Shown one piece after another: positions 748 to 43,279 of a stretch of DNA of 64,000 nt. This stretch comes from Candidatus Pacearchaeota archaeon (GTDB lineage: Archaea; Nanobdellota; Nanobdellia; Pacearchaeales; UBA284): contig JAWANM010000001.1 of NCBI GenBank assembly GCA_038895375.1, positions 3,587 through 67,586 of the forward strand. The letters are read 5' to 3'. Within the stretch, counting starts at the first letter, position 1. The number at the start of each line of letters is the position of its first letter. A model generated the notes under the pieces. It ran no database searches, was not told where the DNA came from, and was given only the letters and a program-made list of their open reading frames with translations. The position numbers and the translations under genes are program-made.

Positions 748-1983
748 ATGAACAAATTCGTAACAACCATAGTAGTAGTGACGCTTTTAATAATCGGAAT
801 TGTAGGAGCGGCATTTTTTCTTTATCCTTACGAACCGAAAAAACCGCCGAGAGCAGACGATAGCGATTCAACGCTACATGGCATTCAAGAAGTTGTTGGC
901 TCGAACAACAAATTCGCTTTTGAGTTGTACTCCAGAATGGCCAATTACGAAGAAAATGTTTTCTTTTCTCCTTACAGTATTTATGCTGCTCTGGCAATCA
1001 CTTATGAAGGTGCAAAAGGAAGAACTGCCGAAGAAATCAAAAAAGTTTTCCATTTTCCGGAAAGCAGAGTATTGAGACCAAATTTTGCAGCAATCTACAA
1101 TTCTTTAAATGAAGAGCAAAAGAATTGTGAGCTTAAGACAGGAAACGCCTTATGGATACAAAAAGACCATCCTTTGCTTGAAGATTATAAAAGCAGAGTA
1201 GAAAAGTATTATGGCGCTAAAGCAGCCAACCTCGATTTTACTAAAGAAGAATCGAGACAAATGATTAATAATTTTATCGAAGAGCAAACAAACGGCAAAA
1301 TCAAAGATCTTATACCTAAAGGTTCTTTAGATCCAACAACTAGATTGGTTATTACAAATGCTATCTACTTCAAAGGAACCTGGTTATGGGAATTCGATCC
1401 AAAAAATACAAGAGAAATGGACTTCAAGGTAAACCAAACAAAAGTGGTAAAAGTTCCTATGATGTGTATGAAGCCAGATAAACCAAGATTCAACTATGCC
1501 GATCTAGATGATTTACAAATACTGGAGTTGCCTTACAAAGGAGAAAAAATTTCTATGCTGATTTTATTGCCGAAAGAAAATCTCGAAAGGATTGATTTAA
1601 CAGCAGAAAAAATTGAAGAATGGAAAAGTAAGATGGAAGAAACCAAATTGGACAGTATCTGCATACCAAAATTCGAACTTAAAACTAAATATTTGATGAA
1701 CGACCATCTCAAAGAATTGGGGATGCCTACCGCCTTTACTATAGAAGCGGATTTTTCTGGCATGAGTAAGGAAAAACTCTTTATCAATTTTGTAATTCAT
1801 CAAGCATACGTTAAAGTTGACGAAAAAGGAACAGAAGCGGCTGCAGCAACCGCAGTTACCATGGTGATGGCAACACCAAAAATGAAAGAATTCAAAGCAG
1901 ATCGTCCATTTATTTTTATAATTCAAGAAAAAATTACAGGAAATATTTTGTTTATAGGAAAGATAGTCGACCCTACGAAATAG
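748..1983 (+). CDS. Serpin (serine/cysteine protease inhibitor) with N-terminal TM/signal anchor
   Basis: SPYSIYAALAITYEGAKGRTAEEI and ITNAIYFKGTWLWEFD motifs. Hinge/reactive-centre loop DEKGTEAAAATAVTMVMATPK..RPFIFIIQE. N-terminal hydrophobic segment. Confidence 0.85.
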   Translation: MNKFVTTIVVVTLLIIGIVGAAFFLYPYEPKKPPRADDSDSTLHGIQEVVGSNNKFAFELYSRMANYEENVFFSPYSIYAALAITYEGAKGRTAEEIKKVFHFPESRVLRPNFAAIYNSLNEEQKNCELKTGNALWIQKDHPLLEDYKSRVEKYYGAKAANLDFTKEESRQMINNFIEEQTNGKIKDLIPKGSLDPTTRLVITNAIYFKGTWLWEFDPKNTREMDFKVNQTKVVKVPMMCMKPDKPRFNYADLDDLQILELPYKGEKISMLILLPKENLERIDLTAEKIEEWKSKMEETKLDSICIPKFELKTKYLMNDHLKELGMPTAFTIEADFSGMSKEKLFINFVIHQAYVKVDEKGTEAAAATAVTMVMATPKMKEFKADRPFIFIIQEKITGNILFIGKIVDPTK

Positions 1984-17224: not shown

Positions 17225-20200
17225 TTATTTTCTTTTCTTTTTGAAAACTGCAAAGAAAATGGTAATAATTAAAGCCATCGCAACCAAAATTAAAACAATA
17301 TAAAGAGTTGGGAAAGAAACTTTTCTAGCTTCTTCTTGCTTTTCTTCTGCTTTGCCTTGAATTTTTTCTTCTCTAACTAGTGGCTCCGGCAGCTCCGGCA
17401 GTGTTATGTTTGTTATGTTTGTTTGATTTGTTGGGCCAATGTTTATAGTGCTAGCTCCGCCACCAGCGCCACCACCAGCACCGCCGCCAGCGCCGCCACC
17501 GCTGCTAGGAGAGTAATACATAGGAGCAAAGATGCTTGAATTAGCTATACTAACGTTTCCAGAATAAACATAATTGTGTTCTGTGTCGACTCCGCTGCTT
17601 GCAAGCTCGCTCCAAGAGCCATTATAAGCAAACATTTTCAAACTAGTTTCATCACTGATTTCTCTTTCATTATAGCTCATATTAAGATAGATCCACGAGC
17701 CTACTGATGCTGCAATTACATTGACAAATTTACCAATGTTTCTATAATTTCTCGGGTCTGGTGCTGGTGCTATTGTCTTGTTCAAAGCAATATTTTCTGA
17801 TATAAAGTTTATTGTTTCTTCCAAGCCGATATCAAAATAAGAGACTATATTGTTTGTTGAGTTTAGTGAAACAAATGCAAAAAATTGATTATTTTTCGAC
17901 TCGTCATCAATTAAAATGTTGTTATTGCTAGAAGAGTTAATAAATAAACCAATCTGATTATTGTTTGTTTCAGTTGAAATAATATAATTATCGCGACTAA
18001 ATCCTAAAAGAATACCAAATTCATTTGAATTGGCCTTTGTATTAAAAATACTGTTTTTTGAAGAAGAAAGAACTCCAATGCCTACATAATTATCATTAAA
18101 AGAAGAATTTGTTATGTTGTTGTGGTTAGAATTAAAAAGAGCCAAACCAAAATAATTACCGGAAGAATTGATTAGATCAAAAGTTGTATTTTCAGTTGCT
18201 AAAACAAGCAAGCCATTATTATCAAGACTCTCAGATCCAGCAATGGTTATGTTCTTAAGTGAAGAATTATCGGCATTGCATAAAATTAATTCTGAGAGAG
18301 TTTCATTTTCTAAGGTTACGCTAGAATTATAGAATTTTATTTCTCTGTCGCCAGAACCCGTGTTATTTTCTATAATATTATTACAATAAGTGTCAATATT
18401 AGCATAACCAATCAAATCGAACAAATTATTTTCTCTTATTATATTATCGATGATAACATTATTTTGACCATCTTCAAGATAAAGGCCATAATCATTATAT
18501 TCAAAAATGCTATCATTAATATTGTTGCCATTAGAATCTTCTAAATAAATTCCATAATAATTTCCAGAAGAATTAATCAAAGAAAAATTAGAATCATTTG
18601 TATAATAGACAAATATGCCATTGTTTTGCAAGTAATCTGAGCCGATAACAGTTACATTATAAATTGAAGAGCTATCGGCATCACACAAAATAAGTTCAGA
18701 AAAAATTTCGTCGCTTAAGTTAACACTTTCATTATAGAAGGCAATAGCTCTATCGCCAGAACCAGTAACATTTTCAATAAAGATACGATCACAACTAGAA
18801 TCTGATAAGCTATTAAACCCTACATCTTGCTGTAAGTTATCTTGAACATTGCAATTGCTTATGTTTATACTTAGCTCGCCGCTGACAGGAAGATCATAAA
18901 TATAAATGCCTGTACTAAAATTAGAAATTGTCAAATTAAAGATAGTTATATTTCCACCTTGAGCAGTGTTTATTCCGTAACCTGTGCTATTGCCAGTGAT
19001 GCTATAGCCGGCGCCATTAATTGTTATGTTATTTGAACCAATTGTGAAGCAAGTTCCATTGCTCTGTAAGTTTCCATTTAAAGTGCATGATTCATAAATT
19101 CTATCGCCACATGTATAAATCATGCCGCTTTCTGCAACACAGCCATAAGGAATTGTTAAAGTTCTATTGTTTGAAGCAAAAACACAATTTCCAGCAGCAT
19201 CACAAGCTTGACAATTCCAAACATAGGTTCCTGAATCAAGAATTTTTTCAAAAATTACTGGTATTGCATTTTCTGGCGAGCTATTGGTTTCGTTAGCGTG
19301 CCAGCCACCAGACCAATTGCCATAAAGAGTTACATTTGTTAAATTTACATTATCAGAAGCAGTACAATTAAATATAATATTTCTTGAGTTTGAAGTAAAG
19401 TTATCTTGTGGTTCGTTTAAAATAACTGTAGGTTCTCCAGATATTACGATTAAAGTTCTTGTTGTTGAAATGTTGATTATTCCTATATTTTCTTCCCAAC
19501 ACTGAATTTTCCAGTTGTAAATTCCTTCTTTACTAAGATTGTATGTTATTGTAGTAAATGTATTATTTTCTGCAATAGTTGTATTAACAATGGTGTTGTT
19601 TATTATTAAATCGCATGTCGCATTTGTTGCATTTTTATTTATCGTTGTAAAATTAAAAGTTATTAAAGAATTGTTTGTTATATAACCATTCTCTGGCGAG
19701 TTTAACAAGATGCTCGGCTTAAAGTTCGGCGCATTAACCACATGAGGATACTCGACTTCTACACCAACGCCGCTACAATTAAACCTTATATAAATATAAC
19801 CATTATCGCCCCATCCTGCTCCCCAGCTGTTTTTGACAATCCAATAACTAGTATTTATGTTTCCTGTATCATTATAACCCACAAGCAAGACGCCATGATT
19901 TAAATCAGACCAATTTTGTGGTATATTGCATGTACTATCATTGAACAAACCACCAGAATAGTTGAACCACGCACTGGTAGCTTTAACACCTATAATAATT
20001 GGACCATTATCTATCAATAATTGTTTGAGTTCTTCATTTGATAAAGGGACGGTAACATTTGGATAATTACTTATGTTGACGTTTGTTGTAAAATTAGTTA
20101 TGTTCCACAATCTGGTCGCATAATCTGAACATCTGTCTGAGCATATAGCGTTAGAACAGTTTCCTCCAGTATGGTAAACACATGATGTAGAGCAATTAGA

Positions 20201-21061
20201 ATTGGAGCAATTGCAATTCGTACCATCAACGTAATTAAAACAATTTTCGTCACTTATACCATCCCTCATAATAAAATCAAGGGCAACATCCATCCAACCA
20301 CCACAACAATTCTCATACGATCCATAATAAGGATCTGTGTGGCAGTTAGAAACAAGGTACTCTTCTGCAAGGTCAGGATTTAATCTTGAATTGTTCTGAT
20401 TAATCTCATACTTGGCCTCGAGAGAGGCTATAGTAGAAAAAGCCCAGCAAGAACCGCAAGAACCTTGATTCTTAACAGAAGTAAGCCATCCATGAATTTC
20501 GTCAAAAAATGTAAAATTATATTTGCTATAGTTTGTTCCATTCGGAGGATTGCGCCAGTCCCAATAAGGAAAATCAGAAGCATTATAAGTTTTAACTGGA
20601 ATTTCTTTGATTAATAATTTTGTATCCTCTCTAGATTCTTCAAAAAAATTCTCTTTAAAACTTTCTCTTGCTCTATTCTCTGCATAAATACATTTAGAAG
20701 ATTTTGTCAAGTCTAATAGCTCATTAACGGGAATTTCTTTCATAATTTTTTTACCTGTTTCGTTAGATGGAACAATACAAAAAGCCATGCCATTTTTGCT
20801 TTTAAGCTCATAGCCATGCTTAGAACAGTAAGAAAATTCCTTGCCGCATTCGCCTCTCAAAAAAGACCATTCTTCGCATCTTTCTTTATTTGGCATCACA
20901 CAAATGCCTTTCTGGCCTAAAGCAGTTTCTACAATTTTATATTCATAACCCAATTCGCTACAATAAACTGCCGCAGGGTTTGGTAATGCAGAAACATAAC
21001 TTGTAAGAAAAATTAAAGCGAATATCACAAAGATAATCAAAAAAAATCTTGAGATTCTCAT
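17225..21061 (-). CDS. Giant membrane-anchored surface protein: signal peptide, DUF333-like modules, papain-family (C1) cysteine peptidase domain, Ig-like/beta-helix repeats, (GGGA)n linker, C-terminal TM
   Basis: NPAAVYCSELGY..GICVMPNKERCEEWSFLRGECG (DUF333). QGSCGSCWAFS (C1 catalytic Cys), LNHGVLLVGY (His), IVKNSWG (Asn). Right-handed beta-helix-like repeats (NITIFNLTISNFSTGIYIYD...). GGGAGGGAGGGAGGGAS. C-terminus LYIVLILVAMALIITIFFAVFKKKRK. Confidence 0.75.
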   Translation of the reverse strand: MRISRFFLIIFVIFALIFLTSYVSALPNPAAVYCSELGYEYKIVETALGQKGICVMPNKERCEEWSFLRGECGKEFSYCSKHGYELKSKNGMAFCIVPSNETGKKIMKEIPVNELLDLTKSSKCIYAENRARESFKENFFEESREDTKLLIKEIPVKTYNASDFPYWDWRNPPNGTNYSKYNFTFFDEIHGWLTSVKNQGSCGSCWAFSTIASLEAKYEINQNNSRLNPDLAEEYLVSNCHTDPYYGSYENCCGGWMDVALDFIMRDGISDENCFNYVDGTNCNCSNSNCSTSCVYHTGGNCSNAICSDRCSDYATRLWNITNFTTNVNISNYPNVTVPLSNEELKQLLIDNGPIIIGVKATSAWFNYSGGLFNDSTCNIPQNWSDLNHGVLLVGYNDTGNINTSYWIVKNSWGAGWGDNGYIYIRFNCSGVGVEVEYPHVVNAPNFKPSILLNSPENGYITNNSLITFNFTTINKNATNATCDLIINNTIVNTTIAENNTFTTITYNLSKEGIYNWKIQCWEENIGIINISTTRTLIVISGEPTVILNEPQDNFTSNSRNIIFNCTASDNVNLTNVTLYGNWSGGWHANETNSSPENAIPVIFEKILDSGTYVWNCQACDAAGNCVFASNNRTLTIPYGCVAESGMIYTCGDRIYESCTLNGNLQSNGTCFTIGSNNITINGAGYSITGNSTGYGINTAQGGNITIFNLTISNFSTGIYIYDLPVSGELSINISNCNVQDNLQQDVGFNSLSDSSCDRIFIENVTGSGDRAIAFYNESVNLSDEIFSELILCDADSSSIYNVTVIGSDYLQNNGIFVYYTNDSNFSLINSSGNYYGIYLEDSNGNNINDSIFEYNDYGLYLEDGQNNVIIDNIIRENNLFDLIGYANIDTYCNNIIENNTGSGDREIKFYNSSVTLENETLSELILCNADNSSLKNITIAGSESLDNNGLLVLATENTTFDLINSSGNYFGLALFNSNHNNITNSSFNDNYVGIGVLSSSKNSIFNTKANSNEFGILLGFSRDNYIISTETNNNQIGLFINSSSNNNILIDDESKNNQFFAFVSLNSTNNIVSYFDIGLEETINFISENIALNKTIAPAPDPRNYRNIGKFVNVIAASVGSWIYLNMSYNEREISDETSLKMFAYNGSWSELASSGVDTEHNYVYSGNVSIANSSIFAPMYYSPSSGGGAGGGAGGGAGGGASTINIGPTNQTNITNITLPELPEPLVREEKIQGKAEEKQEEARKVSFPTLYIVLILVAMALIITIFFAVFKKKRK

Positions 21062-21381
21062 TTTTTAAAATCTCCTGGTTTACATTCTCCTCGATAATAA
21101 GCCCATTCTTCGCATTTCGAACCATCTGGAAAAATGCAAACGCCGTACTGGCCTTTTTCGTTTTCTCTAATTTCAAGAGTTCCATTATTTTGAATGCAAT
21201 AAACACTTGCCGGATTTGGTATTGACTGATTTGCTTTTTTTTCTTTATTTGAATTCAAGAATTTTAGCATTACCAAAACTAAAGCAAAAACTAGAACTAA
21301 AGTCGTGAAAAGCAAAATTTTTTTCATCTTGCCTCTTTTCGAAAATAGAAATTTTCTGCATTTATAAATTTTCTCGATCAA
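21058..21381 (-). CDS. Small secreted DUF333-domain protein
   Basis: Signal peptide then NPASVYCIQNNGTLEIRENEKGQYGVCIFPDGSKCEEWAYYRGEC. Stop overlaps the start of the giant gene (ATGA). Confidence 0.6.
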   Translation of the reverse strand: MIEKIYKCRKFLFSKRGKMKKILLFTTLVLVFALVLVMLKFLNSNKEKKANQSIPNPASVYCIQNNGTLEIRENEKGQYGVCIFPDGSKCEEWAYYRGECKPGDFKK

Positions 21382-37063: not shown

Positions 37064-38542
37064 TTGTTGGCATTAAAATTAAAAATGAAAAGTCCGTATG
37101 TAATGCTTTATGGCTTCAATGTAGATGTTCTACATTTAAAGTACAGATTAAAAAAAGATTCTCTTCTTAAAAACAGTAAACAACTTAATTTGATTATCAA
37201 CAAAGTTTCTCCTGCAGTTATTGCTACAGCTTGCGCAGGCATAAGCCATCAGGAAAAAAGTTTTTCTTGGCTTAGAAAAAAATATAGAAATCTTGATAAG
37301 TTGATCGGCTTGGATAAAAAGCTTGTTGAGATGGGGCATTCCTCTATAGTCGAACACATGTTTTTTAATTTTGATGTTGTCTTGAGCAGGCTTGCTGTGG
37401 AGTTCTTGGAAAGCCATAGATTGGCAAGCTACACCGAAAAATCACAGAGATTTACCGAAGTTGATTACAATGCTTTTTATTTGCCATCTGAACATCAAGA
37501 TTTTGTTTCTCTTTTCAAAAAGCAAATTGAGCTATACAAAAAAGCTTTAGACTTGTCGAGAAAGCAACTAAAAGAAAAATTTGGAGAAAATTGGAAAAAA
37601 TACGATAATAAGGCCAAAGAAGACTCAAGATTTGTTTTGCCTCTGGCAGTTTTAGCTCCTTTAAATTTTAGCGTGAATGGACGTGAATTAGAATATATCA
37701 TTCAAAAGGCAAATTCTCACTCTTTACCAGAAATAAAAAAATTTGGTGAATTGCTAATTAAGGAATTGAATAGCAAAGTTCCTTGGGCCATGCACTTAAT
37801 CAAGCATACAGAAAAAGATGTTTATTATGAAAAAAATAAACAACTGGAAGAAGTTGTAAAGAGCTTGGCCTTGTATCAAAATTGTCAACAAAATACTTCT
37901 ATTGAAGTAGAAAAAGACGCCGACGACAAAATAATTGCTGCTCTTATTTTTGAAAATGCTCAGATCTCGTATGAAAAAGCTCTTGATTTTGTAAAAAAAC
38001 AAGATCAAAAGCTAAAATTTGAAATTGTTAGAAAAGCCTTAAAAAACATGGAAATGTATCATAGACCTCCGAGAGCTTTTGAAATTCCTTATGTAACTGT
38101 ATCTACTGCAATATCTGCTTCTTGTTTTGCCCAACTAAAAAGACATAGAATGCTTACGCTTTTGGTACAGCCCTACGATCCTAGCTTGGGATACACTATT
38201 CCGGAATCTATACATGAAATCGGTCTTGCAAAGGAGTATCTCGAATTAATGGAGCAATCCTCGGAATTGCTTTTCAAGCTTAGAAAGCAAGAGGATCCAG
38301 AAGCGGAATATGTAGTTACAAATGGCCACAAAAGAAGGGTGATTATTAAAATGAATTTTAGAGAGCTCTATCACTTTTCTAGATTAAGACAAGACAAGCA
38401 TGCTCAATGGGAAATTAGGAACCTAGCAAACGAAATTGTTGATCGAGTTAAAAAAGATATGCCTATAACGACAATTCTTCTTGGCGGCAAACACGAATTC
38501 CAAGACATCAAAAAATTGTTTGAAAAATATGAACAAATCTAA
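37064..38542 (+). CDS. thyX: Flavin-dependent thymidylate synthase ThyX-like, double-length
   Basis: N-half HSSIVEHMFFNFDVVLSRLAVEFLESHRLASYTEKSQRF is the ThyX signature (SHR..S....SQRF). C-half has a degenerate second copy (LKRHRMLTLL). 492 aa. Confidence 0.5.
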   Translation: MLALKLKMKSPYVMLYGFNVDVLHLKYRLKKDSLLKNSKQLNLIINKVSPAVIATACAGISHQEKSFSWLRKKYRNLDKLIGLDKKLVEMGHSSIVEHMFFNFDVVLSRLAVEFLESHRLASYTEKSQRFTEVDYNAFYLPSEHQDFVSLFKKQIELYKKALDLSRKQLKEKFGENWKKYDNKAKEDSRFVLPLAVLAPLNFSVNGRELEYIIQKANSHSLPEIKKFGELLIKELNSKVPWAMHLIKHTEKDVYYEKNKQLEEVVKSLALYQNCQQNTSIEVEKDADDKIIAALIFENAQISYEKALDFVKKQDQKLKFEIVRKALKNMEMYHRPPRAFEIPYVTVSTAISASCFAQLKRHRMLTLLVQPYDPSLGYTIPESIHEIGLAKEYLELMEQSSELLFKLRKQEDPEAEYVVTNGHKRRVIIKMNFRELYHFSRLRQDKHAQWEIRNLANEIVDRVKKDMPITTILLGGKHEFQDIKKLFEKYEQI

Positions 38543-39474
38543 GTTTGATTTGTTATACAATAAGTTTCCTCATGAAAATTTCTTACTAGGAAAACTTCTT
38601 TTAATATTTTTATAATCTCTTCCTTTACTTTTTTGCTTTCCTGCTCTGAAAGGCTATAGATCATAAAAGGCTTATTATAGTTGCCTGCTGTAAAAGTTTG
38701 CCACTTTCTCAAGTTAAAAGAATAGCAATATAAAGTTATTGGATTTTTCTGCAAAATTTTGATAAGAGGCTCGTTGTAAGGCCACAAATCTTTCGATGTA
38801 ATCAAATCGCAACAAACTTTGAAAATTTTCCTCACATCGCCATCACAAGAAATTCCAACAAGCGGCTCGCCAAAAGCAGAGTCTATTAAAGCTGCCACGA
38901 ATTTTTCATCGGTATGCAGATCTTCATATACTTTATGATAAATTTTTTTCTCACACTTAGAAGGCTTAAATTTTTTCATCGAGCCTTTTTCAGTAAGAAT
39001 TTCTATAATTTCTACTAAAGCGCTATAACGTTCTTTACTTTTTGGATTGTATATTTTTCTTTTCGCTTCTTTTACCAATTCATTAGCTAAAAAGCAAAGG
39101 TCATTAAAAATTTTTTTATTATAGCTAGGCTCGTTCAATTTTCGACGATATTTTATCCTAGGATTTAAGTTTTTTTCAAGCACATTGAGATATTTGGCTT
39201 TTTCGCTCAATATTTTAGAAAAGCTATAAAGCTCGTCAACAGTGCTGTCGATTATTTTTACATTGTGCAAGCTTAACAAGTTTAGAGCCATGCATATTTT
39301 ATTCTTTGCATTATCCAATTGTTCGTGATCCATTTCTTTGTAAAGTCGTGCTTTATAAAAAGTGCGATAAAAACTTTGTGGTACGATAATAAGACTAGAA
39401 GTTTCTAATAAGAATTCTTGTTCTCGATTCATTATCCTTTCAAGATTCGAAATGCTTGTATTACAAACTTCCAT
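38539..39474 (-). CDS. Hypothetical protein (311 aa)
   Basis: ORF only. 4-nt overlap with thyX on the opposite strand. Confidence 0.35.
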   Translation of the reverse strand: MEVCNTSISNLERIMNREQEFLLETSSLIIVPQSFYRTFYKARLYKEMDHEQLDNAKNKICMALNLLSLHNVKIIDSTVDELYSFSKILSEKAKYLNVLEKNLNPRIKYRRKLNEPSYNKKIFNDLCFLANELVKEAKRKIYNPKSKERYSALVEIIEILTEKGSMKKFKPSKCEKKIYHKVYEDLHTDEKFVAALIDSAFGEPLVGISCDGDVRKIFKVCCDLITSKDLWPYNEPLIKILQKNPITLYCYSFNLRKWQTFTAGNYNKPFMIYSLSEQESKKVKEEIIKILKEVFLVRNFHEETYCITNQT

Positions 39475-40255: not shown

Positions 40256-40279
40256 TGTCTTCTTTATTTCTTTATCTAT

Positions 40280-40362
40280 GCCGCGATGGCCCAACTGGTA
40301 CGGCGCACGCTTGGAGAGCGTGTTTCCGAAAGGATTTCCAGGTTCGAATCCTGGTCGCGGCG
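40280..40362 (+). tRNA. tRNA-Ser (anticodon GGA), intron-less
   Basis: Acceptor GCCGCGA/TCGCGGC. Anticodon stem CACGC/GCGTG, loop TTGGAGA. Variable arm TCCGAAAGGA. T-arm CCAGG-TTCGAAT-CCTGG. Confidence 0.8.
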
Positions 40363-40365
40363 TTT

Positions 40366-41178
40366 TCAGGCTTTTCTAAAAAGCTCTACAAGCTCTTTGA
40401 ATTCTTTTTCTAGAGGTTCTGTATTCAGAAAGTCGGCAAGTTTTGCATTGCGCAATCTAAAGTGCAGATCACTAAGAAGTTCTCTCAAAGTTTTCGGCTT
40501 GTATTTTTTCTCATACTTCTTCAAATAAATAAAATTGTTGACTGTAATTGTGATCAAAAGTATAAACAAAATTGACGCTGCGATTATTCCACCAAAATCC
40601 CAAAGAGTCAGGCTCCCTAAAAAAGAATTTTTAAACACGATTAGCGGATAAGGAAAAACGAAACTAATAAAGCTAAAGGTTATTAAGATTAAACGACATT
40701 CGCTCGGGCCAAGCTTCCCATAAGAAATTCTAAAAGTGTTCTCTATATAAGTCATCAAAAGAACATTGATGGTTATCATAAAATAAAAAGCAATTATAAG
40801 CAGAGCTATTGAAAATTTAAGCGCAGAAAGACCTAGGCCTAAAAAAATGAAAAGAATTGCAAACATATCAGCTATATGATCGGCATAAAATCCTTGCTTG
40901 CTAACTACTTTTTTATATCGGGCTACTTCTCCATCCAAAGCGTCGGCAATCCAAAATACAAAAGCGAAAAAAATCGCACCCAAAAACCAAAGTTTATTGT
41001 AATTCGTAAGATAAAAACAAAGACCATTCAAAAAAGCGCTTATCAATGCTATAAAAGTTAATTGCATCGGTGTAAGTATCTTTGAAACTTTTGGAGCAAG
41101 TCTCGGCCATATTTTATTTTCTATAGGCCTTAAAAAAGATTCTTGTATCTTTTTTTCTTGTTTTTCCTTTTTTTTCAT
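40366..41178 (-). CDS. CDP-alcohol phosphatidyltransferase family membrane protein with C-terminal soluble extension
   Basis: WIADALDGEVARYKKVVSKQGFYADHIAD matches D..DG..AR........G...D...D. Confidence 0.75.
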   Translation of the reverse strand: MKKKEKQEKKIQESFLRPIENKIWPRLAPKVSKILTPMQLTFIALISAFLNGLCFYLTNYNKLWFLGAIFFAFVFWIADALDGEVARYKKVVSKQGFYADHIADMFAILFIFLGLGLSALKFSIALLIIAFYFMITINVLLMTYIENTFRISYGKLGPSECRLILITFSFISFVFPYPLIVFKNSFLGSLTLWDFGGIIAASILFILLITITVNNFIYLKKYEKKYKPKTLRELLSDLHFRLRNAKLADFLNTEPLEKEFKELVELFRKA

Positions 41179-41228
41179 AAAAGCATGAAAACGAATATAT
41201 TTATAAATTCATCTTAACTAAATAAAAA

Positions 41229-41768
41229 ATGGAACTCGAGAATTTGCAAAAAATAATAAAAAACAAACTAAAAAATTTGAAAGAATTGAAAAAAATTCGT
41301 TTTTCTTCCAATAAAAAGATGGTCTTTTTGCCAGGTTGTTTTGACGTTCTTCATCCAGATCATTTTCTTCTTTTTGCATGGGCGAAAAGCCTTGGAGATT
41401 ATTTGGTTGTTGCAACTAATTCCGATGCTTCTATAAGAAAATTAAAAGGAAAAAACAGACCTGTTGTACCGTTAAAGCAAAGAATAATCATGCTCGCATC
41501 CAATGGTTTTATAGATTATATAATTGTCTTTAAAGAAACCAACACTGTAAAGCTGCTGAAAGCATTGAAGCCACAAGTATATGCAAAAGGATCGGATTAC
41601 GTTCTCGACAAATCTTTTCTGAAAAAAAACGATAAAAGAAAAGTAATGAATCAAGAAGAGAGAAAAATAGTCGAATCTTATGGAGGGGAAATTAAATTTA
41701 GACCGGGTTCTTTCAACTATTCCACAACAAAACTTTTGAAAAAAATACAAACTTTCTTCAGAGATTAA
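41229..41768 (+). CDS. Cytidylyltransferase-like (HxGH nucleotidyltransferase; TagD/RfaE-domain-II-like)
   Basis: FLPGCFDVLHPDHFLLFAWAKSLGDYLVVATNSD..GKNRPVVPLKQRIIML..VKLLKALKPQVYAKGSDY. Confidence 0.65.
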   Translation: MELENLQKIIKNKLKNLKELKKIRFSSNKKMVFLPGCFDVLHPDHFLLFAWAKSLGDYLVVATNSDASIRKLKGKNRPVVPLKQRIIMLASNGFIDYIIVFKETNTVKLLKALKPQVYAKGSDYVLDKSFLKKNDKRKVMNQEERKIVESYGGEIKFRPGSFNYSTTKLLKKIQTFFRD

Positions 41769-42592
41769 CTTTCTAAAAGTCTCTCTATTTCTTCCTTAAA
41801 GTCTTGAGAAAAGCTTATGCCTTCTTCTTTTAAGCGAGCCAAAAAAGCGCTCTTTTCTAGCAACTCCCTCAAAGACATTTCTTTATAGCTTTTTTTATCT
41901 ATTTTGTTCAAATATTTCAAATTTTCTACAACACAAACCACTAGCATGTAAAATAAAAAAAACAAGCAAACAATTCCGGCAAAATCGAAAAGCGTTATCT
42001 GTGTTGTTTTTATGTTGAATAAGTAAAAAGGAAATTTGGGCAAAAATAAAGAAACCATGCTGAAGCCAAACAATATTATTCTTCCTTCTGTTCCTCCCAA
42101 GCCACAATAGGCTATTTTATACTTTCCTTGTGTATAAACTGCGAGAGCTGTGCTAATTAGAAGAAGCAAATAAAAGATAATTAAGCCGAGAGCAATCGGA
42201 AGCTTTAATAAAGGCGACAAACCAAGGCCGAACAGCATTGCTGTAACGGCAAAAGCATCTGAAAAATGATCAACATAATAACCATATCTTGGTCTTTGAA
42301 TTTTTCTGTATCTTGCAACTTCGCCATCAAAGCTATCTCCGAACCAATTTAAAAACAAAAAAATACAACTGCCTATAAGCCACCATTTGCTAAAATTTGT
42401 TAGGTAATAGCTTATGCCAACTAAAATAGCAGAAACAACGGAAATTAAAGTCAACCTGTCTGGAGTTAAAAAACCTGGAAGACGAGAAACCCATCTTTCG
42501 ATAATTTTCCTTTCTGTTTTATAAAAAATACCACCTTCTCTTTTTTTGTCTGCTTTTTTTATCTTTTCTTTTAATCTCTTTATTTTTTTCAT
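41765..42592 (-). CDS. CDP-alcohol phosphatidyltransferase family membrane protein (paralog of 40366..41178)
   Basis: NWFGDSFDGEVARYRKIQRPRYGYYVDHFSDAF. Same architecture with a C-terminal extension. Confidence 0.75.
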   Translation of the reverse strand: MKKIKRLKEKIKKADKKREGGIFYKTERKIIERWVSRLPGFLTPDRLTLISVVSAILVGISYYLTNFSKWWLIGSCIFLFLNWFGDSFDGEVARYRKIQRPRYGYYVDHFSDAFAVTAMLFGLGLSPLLKLPIALGLIIFYLLLLISTALAVYTQGKYKIAYCGLGGTEGRIILFGFSMVSLFLPKFPFYLFNIKTTQITLFDFAGIVCLFFLFYMLVVCVVENLKYLNKIDKKSYKEMSLRELLEKSAFLARLKEEGISFSQDFKEEIERLLES

Positions 42593-42640
42593 AAAAGTTA
42601 AAAAGCACTTGGCTTTTTAATCTTTCTAGTCGAAGCAAAA

Positions 42641-43279
42641 TCAAATTAGATTGTAATCTAAAAGTTGATTTTCAAGATTCAAGCCAGGACATGCTGTATT
42701 GAGCCATGCCAAATCTGGCCAGTTTTCGAGTTGCTCTGGAACAAAATTGTCCATCAAAAACAAGTAAACTTTTCCGCCTTTTTTTTCCAATCTTTTTTTA
42801 ATTTCTAAGGCTTCTCTCAGCTTGAGCTGGCCCGGCTTAATTGAAACAAGTATCCCTTTTTTGTCTGAAGAGAGAAACTTAACGTAAGCTGCTTTTTGTC
42901 TTGCTTTAATCTTGTTTATTTCCTCTTGATCAAGCTTATAAAATTGCGAGCTATTTGGATTAAAAACAAAAATCGGTTTTTTAAGAGAAAGAGCAAGCAG
43001 CATAGGATGAAAATTTCCTGAACCTATGTAAAGAAAACAAGAAACTTTATCCTGAAGCTTTAAAGCAGCTTCAAGCTTGCAGCCAAGAATTATACCTTCT
43101 CTATACACAAAAACTTTCTTGCCTTTTTCTTTGAATATAAAATAAAATTTTTTAAGCAAATACGAGAATTGTATTGTAGTAATCAAGCCAACTTTTTTAG
43201 GAAGCTTTTTAGCTATTTCTTCAATTGTTTCTTTAGAAATAAAAATTTTTTGCCGTGCTGGAATATAGAGAATTTTCAT
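42641..43279 (-). CDS. dph2: Dph2-like (diphthamide synthesis radical-SAM-like) protein, short two-domain form
   Basis: FLYIGSGNFHP, GILVSIKPGQLKLREALEIKKRLEKKGGKVYLFLMDN and ACPGLNL resemble the C-terminal two domains of archaeal Dph2. No room for an N-terminal domain because the SepF stop abuts the start. Confidence 0.4.
   Translation of the reverse strand: MKILYIPARQKIFISKETIEEIAKKLPKKVGLITTIQFSYLLKKFYFIFKEKGKKVFVYREGIILGCKLEAALKLQDKVSCFLYIGSGNFHPMLLALSLKKPIFVFNPNSSQFYKLDQEEINKIKARQKAAYVKFLSSDKKGILVSIKPGQLKLREALEIKKRLEKKGGKVYLFLMDNFVPEQLENWPDLAWLNTACPGLNLENQLLDYNLI

What the first reader, a model, noticed from the sequence alone, without database searches (positions are those of the whole stretch)
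40366..42592. Two paralogous CDP-alcohol phosphatidyltransferases with cytoplasmic C-terminal extensions flanking a TagD-like cytidylyltransferase
Both membrane proteins carry the DG..AR...G...D...D motif and a similar ~70-aa charged C-terminal tail. The gene between them, on the opposite strand, is an HxGH cytidylyltransferase (GCFDVLHPDH..KGKNRP). Together they look like a self-contained headgroup-activation and transfer module (CDP-alcohol made locally, then transferred twice). Possible products are a DIP-like solute or an unusual polar lipid headgroup. This would be unusual in a lineage often said to lack lipid biosynthesis.
Basis: partly seen in the sequence, partly recalled or inferred. 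Interest (0 to 1): 0.5.

Follow-up and report, generated by a model that had tools for sequence, protein, structure and literature searches.

The report
Head-group activation and transfer gene trio
A tiny symbiotic archaeon of a group said to lack lipid synthesis carries two membrane enzymes that attach phospho-alcohol head groups, placed around an unusual activating enzyme; relatives of that activating enzyme are fused to such transferases elsewhere, so this is probably a small pathway for giving scavenged lipids new head groups.

Summary
The three genes are real, intact and under purifying selection (dN/dS 0.07-0.14). A (40366-41178, -) and B (41765-42592, -) are 39-40% identical CDP-alcohol phosphotransferases with the full catalytic motif. 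They flank a PF01467 nucleotidyltransferase, CT (41229-41768, +). Three corrections apply.

- CT is not TagD-like. Its nearest relatives are HldC/RfaE-domain-II enzymes.
- CT's signature is HPDH, not HxGH.
- The C-terminal tails are 47-50 aa, not about 70.

A and B fit no named synthase (AIPS, DIPPS, PIPS, PssA, PgsA). They belong to a large, mostly bacterial, uncharacterised family. Its closest solved relatives are Kennedy-type choline/ethanolamine phosphotransferases, and it shares their catalytic His.

The module idea gains independent support. CT belongs to a small clade (99% bootstrap) whose other members are fused to a CDP-alcohol phosphotransferase (P0191), overlap one in a bacterial operon (L095), or pair divergently with an A-type gene (L008, L096).

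Against it, CT and the transferases each occur without the other at the same slot in relatives. The alcohol, the nucleotide and the acceptor are unknown.

This is a new variant of the known "cytidylyltransferase plus CDP-alcohol phosphotransferase" scheme, probably acting on lipid. A DIP-like solute is unlikely.

The parts
40366..41178 (-). Transferase A: a 270-aa, 6-TM CDP-alcohol phosphotransferase of the A-type paralog clade, with a 50-aa cytoplasmic helical tail
   Evidence: PF01066 at 45.3 bits. Motif DALDGEVARYKKVVSKQGFYADHIAD from residue 79. 40% identical to B. The A-type clade has 100% bootstrap. dN/dS 0.07.
41200..41207 (.). Palindromic TATA-like octamer TTTATAAA in the 50-bp A/CT spacer. 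It lies 21 nt from the A start (41178, -) and 21 nt from the CT start (41229, +), and is a likely shared bidirectional promoter for leaderless transcripts.
   Evidence: The sequence was read directly. The same 21-8-21 layout occurs in L008, although the flanking bases differ. The box plus 21 nt to the CT start is also kept in L096. The octamer occurs 23 times in the window against 9.8 +/- 3.1 expected. Promoter function is inferred.
41229..41768 (+). CT: a 179-aa HIGH-superfamily nucleotidyltransferase derived from the HldC/RfaE-domain-II lineage, with signature HPDH. It is the proposed activator of the head-group phosphate.
   Evidence: PF01467 at 56.4 bits. rfaE_dom_II at 134.2 bits against a cutoff of 181.5; TagD at 34.7 against 165.4. 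PDB sequence search: HldC 5x9q E 9e-21. AF2 model pLDDT 92.4. Foldseek: HldC E 7e-15, TMt 0.80-0.86. The clade that includes fused and operonic members has 99% bootstrap.
41765..42592 (-). Transferase B: a 275-aa, 6-TM CDP-alcohol phosphotransferase of the B-type paralog clade, with a 47-aa cytoplasmic helical tail. It is the gene conserved next to Dph2 in relatives.
   Evidence: PF01066 at 36.3 bits. Motif DSFDGEVARYRKIQRPRYGYYVDHFSD from residue 86. AF2 model pLDDT 88.6. Foldseek: AF2299 TMq 0.59, CEPT1 0.56. The B-type clade has 97% bootstrap.
41765..41768 (.). Overlapping convergent stop codons of B and CT (TTAA read as TAA on both strands)
   Evidence: Read directly. L006/L007 show the same 4-nt overlap at the matching coordinates. 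In L096 the end of CT overlaps Dph2 by 4 nt in the same way.
40279..40363 (+). tRNA-Ser(GGA), one boundary of the variable slot that holds the genes
   Evidence: ARAGORN. A tRNA-Ser sits at the same position in L001, L002, L004, L006, L008, L009 and L097.
42641..43279 (-). Short Dph2 (212 aa), the other boundary of the slot, co-directional with and 48 bp upstream of B
   Evidence: PF01866, E 1.4e-35. The order L11 - L37ae - prefoldin - SepF - Dph2 - [slot] is conserved.

Best explanation
The three genes form a two-step head-group pathway of the Kennedy / IPCT-DIPPS type.

Step 1. CT condenses an NTP, presumably CTP, with a phospho-alcohol to give a soluble nucleotide-activated alcohol. CT is an HldC-derived nucleotidyltransferase whose signature has changed to HxDH.

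Step 2. A, and probably B, are six-helix membrane enzymes with the di-metal motif on the cytoplasmic face. They transfer the phospho-alcohol from that donor to a hydroxyl acceptor. The acceptor is most likely a membrane lipid alcohol taken from a host, because the organism appears unable to make lipid cores or CDP-archaeol.

A and CT are probably co-expressed from one palindromic TATA box. B sits downstream of Dph2 and is the more widely conserved copy.

Shown here: gene integrity, paralogy, catalytic motifs, folds, family placement, purifying selection, and the fusion, operon and divergent-pair associations of the CT clade with PF01066 genes.

Inferred: that CT uses CTP; the identity of the alcohol; that the acceptor is a lipid; co-transcription. 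For the alcohol, myo-inositol-1-phosphate is my leading guess. The fused and operonic partners resemble inositol-phosphate enzymes, and inositol-1-P is shaped like HldC's cyclic sugar-1-phosphate substrate. Glycerol phosphate and phosphoethanolamine are not excluded.
For: 1. Both transferases keep every invariant family residue (D86, D89, G90, A93, R94, G104, D108, D112, E169, R171 in B numbering). The B model has the canonical fold.

2. A family profile searched against PDB sequences ranks enzymes that use soluble CDP-alcohol donors first: CEPT1 1.5e-14, CHPT1 8e-11, AF2299 8e-8, IPCT-DIPPS 1e-4. CDP-DAG users come last: PIPS 1e-3, PgsA 6.2.

3. A and B carry the 'D3-H' histidine, which is at least 90% conserved in the family. 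In xlCHPT1 this His133 is essential, is proposed to activate the DAG hydroxyl, and is absent from most bacterial CDP-APs (PMC10182977).

4. The CT clade (99% bootstrap) is linked to PF01066 genes in three independent ways:
- Fusion in P0191. Its CT half is 44% identical to the window CT (E 2e-42). Its C-terminal half matches the DIPPS portion of NF041135 at 80.6 bits and carries a complete motif.
- An operon with an 11-nt overlap in L095, behind a perfect TTGACA-18-TATAAT promoter. The L095 transferase is 42% identical to the P0191 C-terminal half (E 8e-62).
- Divergent A-CT pairs in the window, L006/L007, L008 and L096.

5. The TTTATAAA box lies 21 nt from both start codons, and the layout is conserved in L008.

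6. Bacterial family members lie next to lipid genes: PlsC-type and lipid A-type acyltransferases, GtrA-like proteins, SDR, and an Spt/KBL-like aminotransferase.

7. The sister clade of the DPANN sequences is from CPR-like bacteria (80% bootstrap), and labelled Patescibacteria also carry family members. Patescibacteria were also reported to lack lipid-synthesis genes (PMC11537232).

8. My Pfam survey of 46 of the longer window ORFs found no CarS, GGGPS or DGGGPS. Pacearchaeota genomes are reported to lack lipid-synthesis genes (PMC11537232).
Against: - CT's closest characterised relatives are ATP-using heptose-1-phosphate adenylyltransferases. Some near relatives are fused to PfkB kinase or SIS domains of the ADP-heptose pathway. 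Its nucleotide and substrate are untested.
- An Asp in place of the HxGH glycine could impair rather than retune catalysis.
- In the fusion and the operon, the partner is a different PF01066 subfamily (DIPPS-like), not the A/B family.
- Relatives carry B, or B plus an A-type gene, at the same slot without CT (L001, L002, L004, L097). L009 carries CT there without any transferase, and L094 has CT next to GDSL-hydrolase and NUDIX genes.
- None of 80 bacterial loci of the A/B family has an HldC-like gene within 8 kb.
- No gene that would make the phospho-alcohol was seen in the window.
- The whole genome could not be checked for CarS or CdsA.
- The Glu of the eukaryotic G-E-xx-D-H motif is Tyr or Phe here.
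Confidence: 0.5

Rival explanations
1. A and B are conventional CDP-archaeol- or CDP-diacylglycerol-dependent synthases (AIPS, AGPS, ASS or PIPS type). They would add inositol phosphate, glycerol phosphate or serine to an activated lipid. CT would be an unrelated neighbour.
For: The best NCBIfam hit for both is the AIPS model (50.8 and 49.1 bits). JGI names many family members AIPS or PGP synthase. Chloroflexi members sit beside an HtrB/PatA-like acyltransferase, as in the mycobacterial PIPS-PatA operon; that operon is from my own knowledge. B occurs widely without CT.
Against: The AIPS score is far below the cutoff of 180. In the profile-versus-PDB search, PIPS (1e-3) and PgsA (6.2) rank far below CEPT1 (1.5e-14). 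The Pfam survey of the window found no CarS, and the lineage is reported to lack lipid-synthesis genes. The His of 'DHxxD' is a mark of the DAG-acceptor enzymes. The CT clade is repeatedly linked to PF01066 genes.
Confidence: 0.25
2. CT is an ordinary sugar-phosphate nucleotidyltransferase, such as an ADP-heptose type enzyme for surface glycans. It merely landed in a recombination-prone slot beside a tRNA gene, and its adjacency to A and B is coincidental.
For: rfaE_dom_II is the best model (134 bits). HldC is the best structural match. The nearest non-clade relatives are bacterial HldC/HldE enzymes, some fused to PfkB or SIS domains. The Dph2 to tRNA-Ser slot is variable, and CT occurs there alone in L009.
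Against: The score is below the family cutoff, and the Gly-to-Asp/Glu change marks a distinct 99%-supported clade. That clade includes a CT-transferase fusion and an overlapping operon in an unrelated genomic context. The Pfam survey of the window found no GmhA, kinase or GmhB. The TATA box shared with A is conserved.
Confidence: 0.15
3. The module makes a soluble DIP-like phosphodiester osmolyte, with CDP-alcohol plus a soluble alcohol phosphate as substrates, rather than a lipid.
For: The CT clade's fused and operonic partners (P0191, L095) match the DIPPS half of IPCT/DIPPS best, at about 80 bits. A and B give weak DIPPS hits of 37-38 bits.
Against: A and B are far from the DIPPS cutoff of 580. 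They are closer to lipid-forming CPT/EPT enzymes and carry their lipid-OH-activating His. Bacterial family neighbours are lipid enzymes. The Pfam survey of the window found no inositol-phosphate synthase or phosphatase. From my own knowledge, DIP is a solute of hyperthermophiles; nothing here suggests one, but temperature was not tested.
Confidence: 0.07

Closest known systems
Kennedy-pathway pair: CTP:phosphoethanolamine/phosphocholine cytidylyltransferase (ECT/CCT) plus choline/ethanolamine phosphotransferase (CEPT1/CHPT1)
   Same: It has the same two-step logic: an HIGH-superfamily cytidylyltransferase makes a soluble CDP-alcohol, and a PF01066 membrane enzyme passes the phospho-alcohol to a lipid hydroxyl. 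CEPT1 and CHPT1 are the best PDB sequence matches of the A/B family profile. The 'D-H-xx-D' histidine is shared. ECT is the second-best PDB sequence hit of CT (4e-13).
   Different: A and B have 6 TM helices and not 10, so they lack the pseudo-dimer domain. The motif Glu is Tyr or Phe. CT is nearer to HldC than to ECT/CCT and has HPDH. The host is a prokaryote, and the alcohol and acceptor are unknown.
Bifunctional IPCT/DIPPS (A. fulgidus 4MND; NF041135) and AF2299
   Same: A cytidylyltransferase is coupled, here by fusion, to a PF01066 transferase that uses a soluble CDP-alcohol. The CT-clade fusion P0191 and the L095 operon mimic this layout, and their transferase halves match the DIPPS half best. 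AF2299 is the top structural match of B.
   Different: By my own knowledge, the IPCT domain has a GlmU-like NTP-transferase fold, whereas CT is an HIGH/HldC-type Rossmann enzyme, so the replacement is non-homologous. A and B are a different PF01066 subfamily (37-38 bits against a cutoff of 580). In the window the genes are separate and on opposite strands.
HldC / HldE domain II (D-glycero-beta-D-manno-heptose-1-phosphate adenylyltransferase; TIGR02199, PDB 5X9Q/5XF2)
   Same: This is the closest sequence and structure relative of CT: about 34% identity, E 9e-21, and TMt 0.80-0.86. It shares the NSDxS..LKG..RP and STT motifs.
   Different: CT scores below the equivalog cutoff (134 against 181.5). 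The HxGH glycine is Asp. CT has an 11-aa insert and an N-terminal two-helix extension. No heptose-pathway partner genes were found. The clade is linked to PF01066 genes instead.
Predicted alternative inositol-lipid cluster of Bacteroides vulgatus and Prevotella (NTP transferase + CDP-alcohol phosphatidyltransferase + HAD; Heaver et al. 2022, PMC9246714)
   Same: It is a prokaryotic, predicted Kennedy-like route, CDP-inositol plus DAG, built from a nucleotidyltransferase next to a PF01066 enzyme.
   Different: It uses a different nucleotidyltransferase fold and sits beside MIPS and a HAD hydrolase. It too is unconfirmed experimentally. No MIPS or HAD was found in the window.
Archaetidylinositol-phosphate synthase (AIPS, NF040950)
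   Same: It gives the best NCBIfam hit, and JGI uses this name for many family members.
   Different: The scores are 50.8 and 49.1 bits against a cutoff of 180. AIPS needs CDP-archaeol, and the Pfam survey of the window found no gene for the synthase (CarS) that makes it.

Membership tests
CDP-alcohol phosphotransferase superfamily (PF01066) | Pfam HMM score above the gathering score | tested here: met
   A 45.3 bits and B 36.3 bits against a cutoff of 22.
CDP-alcohol phosphotransferase superfamily (PF01066) | Signature D1xxD2GxxAR...GxxxD3xxxD4 | tested here: met
   The regex matches in both proteins, at A residue 79 and B residue 86. All of these residues are invariant across the 37-39 aligned family members.
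CDP-alcohol phosphotransferase superfamily (PF01066) | Six-TM catalytic fold as in AF2299 / PIPS / CEPT1 TM1-6 | tested here: met
   AF2 model of B, pLDDT 88.6. Foldseek probability 1.00 to AF2299 (TMq 0.59), PIPS and CEPT1. A was not modelled.
Archaetidylinositol phosphate synthase (NF040950) | NCBIfam equivalog score of at least 180 bits | tested here: not met
   50.8 bits (A) and 49.1 bits (B).
IPCT/DIPPS (NF041135) | Equivalog score of at least 580 bits, with a fused IPCT domain | tested here: not met
   37.3 and 37.9 bits, matching the transferase half only. No fused domain is present.
PgsA-type PGP synthase | Sequence similarity to PgsA | tested here: not met
   No pgsA model was hit at E <= 0.01. 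The family profile scores S. aureus PgsA 7drj at E 6.2, the weakest of all solved CDP-APs.
Eukaryote-type choline/ethanolamine phosphotransferase (CPT/EPT) | Extended motif G-E-xx-D-H-xx-D (Glu129 / His133 of xlCHPT1) | tested here: inconclusive
   The His is present (B H109, A 'ADH'), and it is at least 90% conserved in the family. The Glu position is Tyr or Phe.
Eukaryote-type choline/ethanolamine phosphotransferase (CPT/EPT) | Ten TM helices, with a TM7-10 dimerisation domain | tested here: not met
   The model of B has six TM helices plus a soluble tail. The CEPT1 description is in PMC10156783.
Eukaryote-type choline/ethanolamine phosphotransferase (CPT/EPT) | Uses CDP-choline or CDP-ethanolamine plus diacylglycerol | not testable with these tools
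   This needs an enzyme assay.
HldC / RfaE domain II (TIGR02199) | Equivalog-domain score of at least 181.5 bits | tested here: not met
   134.2 bits.
HldC / RfaE domain II (TIGR02199) | HxGH nucleotide-binding signature | tested here: not met
   CT has HPDH. Gly is kept in 145 of 151 motifs found in the 149 nearest representatives.
HldC / RfaE domain II (TIGR02199) | HldC-like fold | tested here: met
   Foldseek to 5xf2: E 7e-15, TMt 0.80-0.86, 34% identity.
TagD / glycerol-3-phosphate cytidylyltransferase (TIGR01518) | Equivalog score of at least 165.4 bits | tested here: not met
   34.7 bits. PDB sequence search gives 1coz at E 5e-6, and Foldseek gives 2.5e-7.
RibL / FAD synthetase | Sequence similarity to FAD synthetase or RibL-type enzymes | tested here: not met
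   FAD synthetase models score only 20-25 bits against cutoffs of 232-241. The archaeal TagD/RibL-like structure 3glv scores E 4e-7, against 9e-21 for HldC.

The most novel reading that the evidence does not exclude
DPANN archaea and CPR bacteria share, by inter-domain transfer, a Kennedy-like salvage route for membrane lipids. Both groups are ultra-small and reported to lack lipid-synthesis genes. In this route a previously unrecognised cytidylyltransferase clade makes a CDP-alcohol, possibly CDP-inositol. The clade is derived from ADP-heptose enzymes and is marked by an HxDH/HxEH signature. His-bearing CDP-alcohol phosphotransferases then put that head group onto lipid cores taken from the host. 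This would let these organisms tailor their polar lipids without CarS or CdsA and without any core-lipid synthesis.
Probability: 0.3. Interest if true: 0.75.

Novelty: new variant of a known kind. Interest (0 to 1): 0.6.

Why it matters
How DPANN archaea and CPR bacteria build membranes without lipid-synthesis genes is an open question. Current work points to wholesale or selective uptake of host lipids (e.g. PMC11035636, PMC11537232).

This locus offers a short, conserved and expressible pair or trio of enzymes that would let such cells re-head scavenged lipid cores. That turns the question into a direct biochemical test. It also points to two things I could not find described in eight full-text literature searches:

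- an HldC-derived nucleotidyltransferase clade with an altered signature motif that partners with CDP-alcohol phosphotransferases by fusion, operon or divergent pairing;
- a large prokaryotic PF01066 family (at least 1526 members) whose nearest solved relatives are the eukaryotic Kennedy enzymes.

Tried and rejected
- **Exact look-up of B.** The window protein is not on record, so I used the 98%-identical P0001 instead.
- **Single-sequence PDB search with B.** It gave no real hit. A profile was needed.
- **Genome-contig scan with a DPANN-only alignment.** I reused those 80 loci for neighbourhood analysis.
- **Custom motif pattern in viral contigs.** No hits.
- **AFDB50 fold search.** Not available.
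- **First NJ bootstrap script.** It timed out and was rewritten.
- **RibL / FAD synthase reading of CT.** Rejected.
- **PgsA-by-HGT reading of A and B.** Rejected, because PgsA is the most distant solved relative.
- **Pseudogene or decaying-gene reading.** Rejected on dN/dS.
- **The C-terminal tail as a CT-docking element.** Not supported. The tail is present in relatives without CT (P0008, P0010).
- **Pfam survey of 46 of the longer window ORFs for CarS, GGGPS, DGGGPS, UbiA, MIPS, GmhA, HldA and GmhB.** None was found. The rest of the genome could not be examined.
- **Literature searches for DPANN or CPR together with CDP-alcohol phosphotransferases.** Nothing specific was found.
Full report
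**1. What is there**

The window has about 33% G+C. It carries archaeal housekeeping genes: exosome, proteasome, ribosomal proteins, SepF, Dph2 and ThyX. The nearest public copy of the locus is 98% identical and is labelled Candidatus Pacearchaeota, a DPANN lineage.

Three ORFs sit at the reported coordinates:
- A: 40366-41178 (-), 270 aa.
- CT: 41229-41768 (+), 179 aa.
- B: 41765-42592 (-), 275 aa.

A and B pass Pfam PF01066, and CT passes PF01467. A and B are 40% identical (E 2e-51). Each carries the full D..DG..AR..G...D...D motif. Compared with the 74%-identical relative L008, all three genes are under purifying selection. dN/dS is 0.07-0.14 against 0.155 for the neighbouring Dph2, although dS is near saturation.

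Three details need correcting:
- The tails after the last hydrophobic segment are 47-50 aa, not about 70.
- The signature in CT is H-P-D-H, so the glycine of HxGH is missing.
- CT is not TagD-like (section 3).

**2. The transferases**

Neither protein reaches any NCBIfam equivalog. AIPS scores 50.8 and 49.1 bits against a cutoff of 180. DIPPS scores 37 against 580. PIPS scores 25-27 against 170. PssA scores about 20 against 107.

Homology searches first found 43 relatives. With a profile, at least 1526 were found. Most are bacterial: Acidobacteriota, Gemmatimonadota, Chloroflexota, Bacteroidales, Sphingopyxis, Methylocystis, a planctomycete-like genome and Patescibacteria.

A family profile searched against all PDB sequences gave this ranking:

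| Solved relative | E-value |
|---|---|
| Human CEPT1 | 1.5e-14 |
| Xenopus CHPT1 | 8e-11 |
| AF2299 | 8e-8 |
| IPCT-DIPPS | 1e-4 |
| PIPS | 1e-3 |
| PgsA | 6.2 |

Enzymes that take a soluble CDP-alcohol donor therefore come first, and CDP-diacylglycerol users come last.

The family has a nearly invariant His directly after the third motif Asp (B: D108-H109). In xlCHPT1 the equivalent His133 is essential and is proposed to activate the diacylglycerol hydroxyl. It is described as absent from most bacterial CDP-APs (PMC10182977). The partner Glu of that motif is Tyr or Phe here.

An AlphaFold model of B (pLDDT 88.6) shows six TM helices, a short external hairpin and a helical cytoplasmic tail. 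Foldseek gives AF2299, PIPS and CEPT1 as the best matches, all at probability 1.00.

A neighbour-joining tree (222 columns, 200 bootstraps) gives these supports:
- DPANN clade: 99%.
- B-type clade within it: 97%.
- A-type clade within it: 100%. It contains window A, the second gene of L008 and the second gene of L001.
- CPR-like sister clade: 80%.

The A/B duplication is therefore old within DPANN.

In 80 bacterial loci, the recurrent neighbours are lipid-related:
- a GtrA-like protein immediately downstream (23 loci or more);
- PlsC-type acyltransferases (9 loci);
- lipid A-type acyltransferases (8 loci);
- an SDR (13 loci);
- a class I/II aminotransferase of the Spt/KBL kind (7 loci).

This points to a membrane-lipid role for the family. 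In Patescibacteria the gene sits among housekeeping genes, for example between fusA and tuf.

**3. The middle gene**

- NCBIfam's best model is rfaE_dom_II, at 134.2 bits against a cutoff of 181.5. TagD scores 34.7 against 165.4, and FAD synthetases score 20-25 bits.
- By sequence against the PDB, HldC of Burkholderia (5x9q) scores 9e-21, ECT 4e-13, 3glv 4e-7 and TagD about 1e-6.
- The AlphaFold model (pLDDT 92.4) matches HldC at E 7e-15 and TMt 0.80-0.86. Cytidylyltransferases (Fom1 CyTase, TagD, ECT, CCT) form a second tier at 1e-7 to 1e-6.
- In 1.84 billion representatives only 8 proteins reach E 1e-30. Most of the next hits are 460-500-aa HldE-type proteins.

CT is thus an HldC-lineage enzyme, but a divergent one. 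It has an N-terminal two-helix extension and an 11-residue insert. Its HxGH glycine is Asp, or Glu in relatives. Among the 149 nearest representatives, 145 of 151 motifs keep Gly.

**4. Is CT coupled to the transferases?**

The genes lie in a conserved slot between Dph2 and tRNA-Ser. The content of that slot varies among relatives:

| Locus | Slot content |
|---|---|
| Window, L006/L007, L008 | B-CT-A |
| L001 | B plus an A-type gene |
| L002, L004, L097 | B only |
| L096 | A-CT, without B |
| L009 | CT only |

L009 is closest to L004.

That pattern alone is ambiguous, so I looked for the odd CT motif elsewhere. A back-translated pattern for GCFDxxHx[D/E]H followed by LGDYLVVA found two metagenome contigs.
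- In L095 the CT gene overlaps, by 11 nt on the same strand, a 261-aa PF01066 gene. That gene's best NCBIfam match is the DIPPS half of IPCT/DIPPS, at 79.8 bits. The pair sits behind a perfect TTGACA-18-TATAAT promoter in a contig with a HisKA kinase and an M23 peptidase, so the host is a bacterium.
- In L094, CT sits between NUDIX and GDSL-hydrolase genes.

The exhaustive representative search then turned up P0191. This is a 405-aa single polypeptide with two halves:
- The N-terminal half is a CT of this type, with GCFDLIHSDH. It is 44% identical to the window CT (E 2e-42).
- The C-terminal half is a complete CDP-alcohol phosphotransferase. It is 42% identical to the L095 transferase (E 8e-62) and scores 80.6 bits on the DIPPS half of NF041135.

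In a tree, the window CT, its DPANN relatives, L094, L095 and the P0191 CT domain form one clade with 99% bootstrap. Members of this small clade are therefore fused to, in an operon with, or divergently paired with PF01066 enzymes of two different subfamilies. I take this as good comparative evidence that the clade supplies the activated donor for such enzymes.

Within the window, a palindromic TTTATAAA (41200-41207) lies 21 nt from both divergent start codons. The same 21-8-21 layout is kept in L008 although the flanking bases differ. The box plus 21 nt to the CT start is also kept in L096. The octamer is over-represented in the window, with 23 copies against 9.8 +/- 3.1 expected. This fits a shared archaeal TATA box for leaderless transcripts, which is an inference.

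**5. Most likely mechanism**

- Step 1 (inferred): CT joins CTP and a phospho-alcohol to make a CDP-alcohol.
- Step 2 (inferred from family placement): A, and probably B, transfer the phospho-alcohol to a hydroxyl acceptor at the cytoplasmic membrane face, using the di-metal site and the motif His.

The acceptor is most plausibly a lipid alcohol, for three reasons:
- The family's bacterial neighbours are lipid enzymes.
- Its nearest solved relatives make phospholipids from diacylglycerol.
- The Pfam survey of the window found no CarS, GGGPS or DGGGPS, and the lineage is reported to lack lipid-synthesis genes (PMC11537232). CDP-archaeol should therefore not be available.

The alcohol is unknown. 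myo-Inositol-1-phosphate is my leading guess. The fused and operonic partners resemble inositol-phosphate enzymes, and a cyclic polyol 1-phosphate resembles HldC's sugar-1-phosphate substrate. This is speculation.

**6. Weak points**

- CT's nearest characterised relatives use ATP and heptose-1-phosphate, and some near relatives are fused to ADP-heptose pathway domains.
- The Asp substitution might reduce activity.
- The fusion and operon partners are not of the A/B subfamily.
- Many relatives have one component at the slot without the other.
- No HldC-like gene lies near any of 80 bacterial family members.
- The full genome could not be searched.

**7. Comparison with the known, and novelty**

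The scheme is the known 'cytidylyltransferase plus CDP-alcohol phosphotransferase' logic. It is seen in the Kennedy pathway, in IPCT/DIPPS, and in the predicted Bacteroides vulgatus inositol-lipid cluster (PMC9246714).

Two components are new:
- a nucleotidyltransferase recruited from the HldC lineage, with an altered signature;
- a His-bearing, six-helix transferase family shared by DPANN and CPR organisms.

Eight full-text searches found no description of either.

I rate this a new variant of a known kind, with interest 0.6.

Noticed in passing
window 41229-41768 (motif at residues 42-45): The HxGH glycine of the nucleotidyltransferase is Asp. It is Asp or Glu in 7 of 8 members of a 99%-supported clade, whereas 145 of 151 motifs in the 149 nearest representatives keep Gly. 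The consequence for catalysis or nucleotide choice is unknown.
   Followed up: partly
window 40279-43279 and loci L001, L002, L004, L008, L009, L096, L097: The slot between Dph2 and tRNA-Ser changes content among related Pacearchaeota-like genomes. It holds B-CT-A, B plus an A-type gene, B only, A-CT, or CT only. It looks like a tRNA-adjacent hot spot for gene gain and loss.
   Followed up: yes
L095 9839-11141 (-) and protein P0191: A probable CPR-like bacterium has the same odd CT in an overlapping operon with a DIPPS-like CDP-alcohol phosphotransferase, behind a perfect TTGACA-18-TATAAT promoter. P0191 is the same pair fused into one 405-aa protein. The CT clade therefore spans bacteria and archaea.
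   Followed up: yes
window, 23 sites (e.g. 13343, 41200, 43693): The octamer TTTATAAA occurs 23 times against 9.8 +/- 3.1 expected. Copies I checked against ORF starts lie about 20-25 nt upstream of a start codon (13343, 41200, 43693). This suggests it is the TATA box of leaderless genes in this organism.
   Followed up: partly
window 748-1983 (+): A full-length serpin (PF00079, E 1e-120) in a reduced DPANN genome.
   Followed up: no
window 17225-21061 (-) and 21058-21381 (-): A 1278-aa protein combines a DUF333 domain, a papain-family cysteine protease and beta-helix/NosD repeats. A separate 107-aa DUF333 protein lies directly upstream. Together they may form a surface protease system.
   Followed up: no
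window 37064-38542 (+): ThyX is 492 aa and shows two Thy1-domain stretches (residues 56-243 and 294-467), so it appears tandemly duplicated. The relative L002 has a 541-aa version.
   Followed up: no
window 42641-43279 (-): Dph2 is short: 212 aa, covering Pfam profile positions 64-274 of 302. The short form is conserved (212-221 aa) in all relatives examined.
   Followed up: no
window 38539-39474 (-): A 311-aa ORF with no Pfam or NCBIfam hit. The region between DUF72 and the MJ0043_C-family gene differs from the otherwise 98%-identical relative L006, so this stretch varies between strains.
   Followed up: no
L068 2420-3247; L012/L078: In Patescibacteria the A/B-family transferase sits in housekeeping contexts: between fusA and tuf in L068, and next to the CCA-adding enzyme, RNase J and an IF-2B-like gene in L012 and L078. 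This suggests a core role in these lipid-auxotrophic bacteria too.
   Followed up: partly
L051, L062, L069, L071 and other Bacteroidales loci: Bacteroidales members of the family cluster with a PlsC-like acyltransferase, an SDR and an Spt/KBL-like aminotransferase. This hints at a role in sphingolipid or phospholipid head-group synthesis. These loci differ from the BT_1523 and B. vulgatus inositol clusters.
   Followed up: partly
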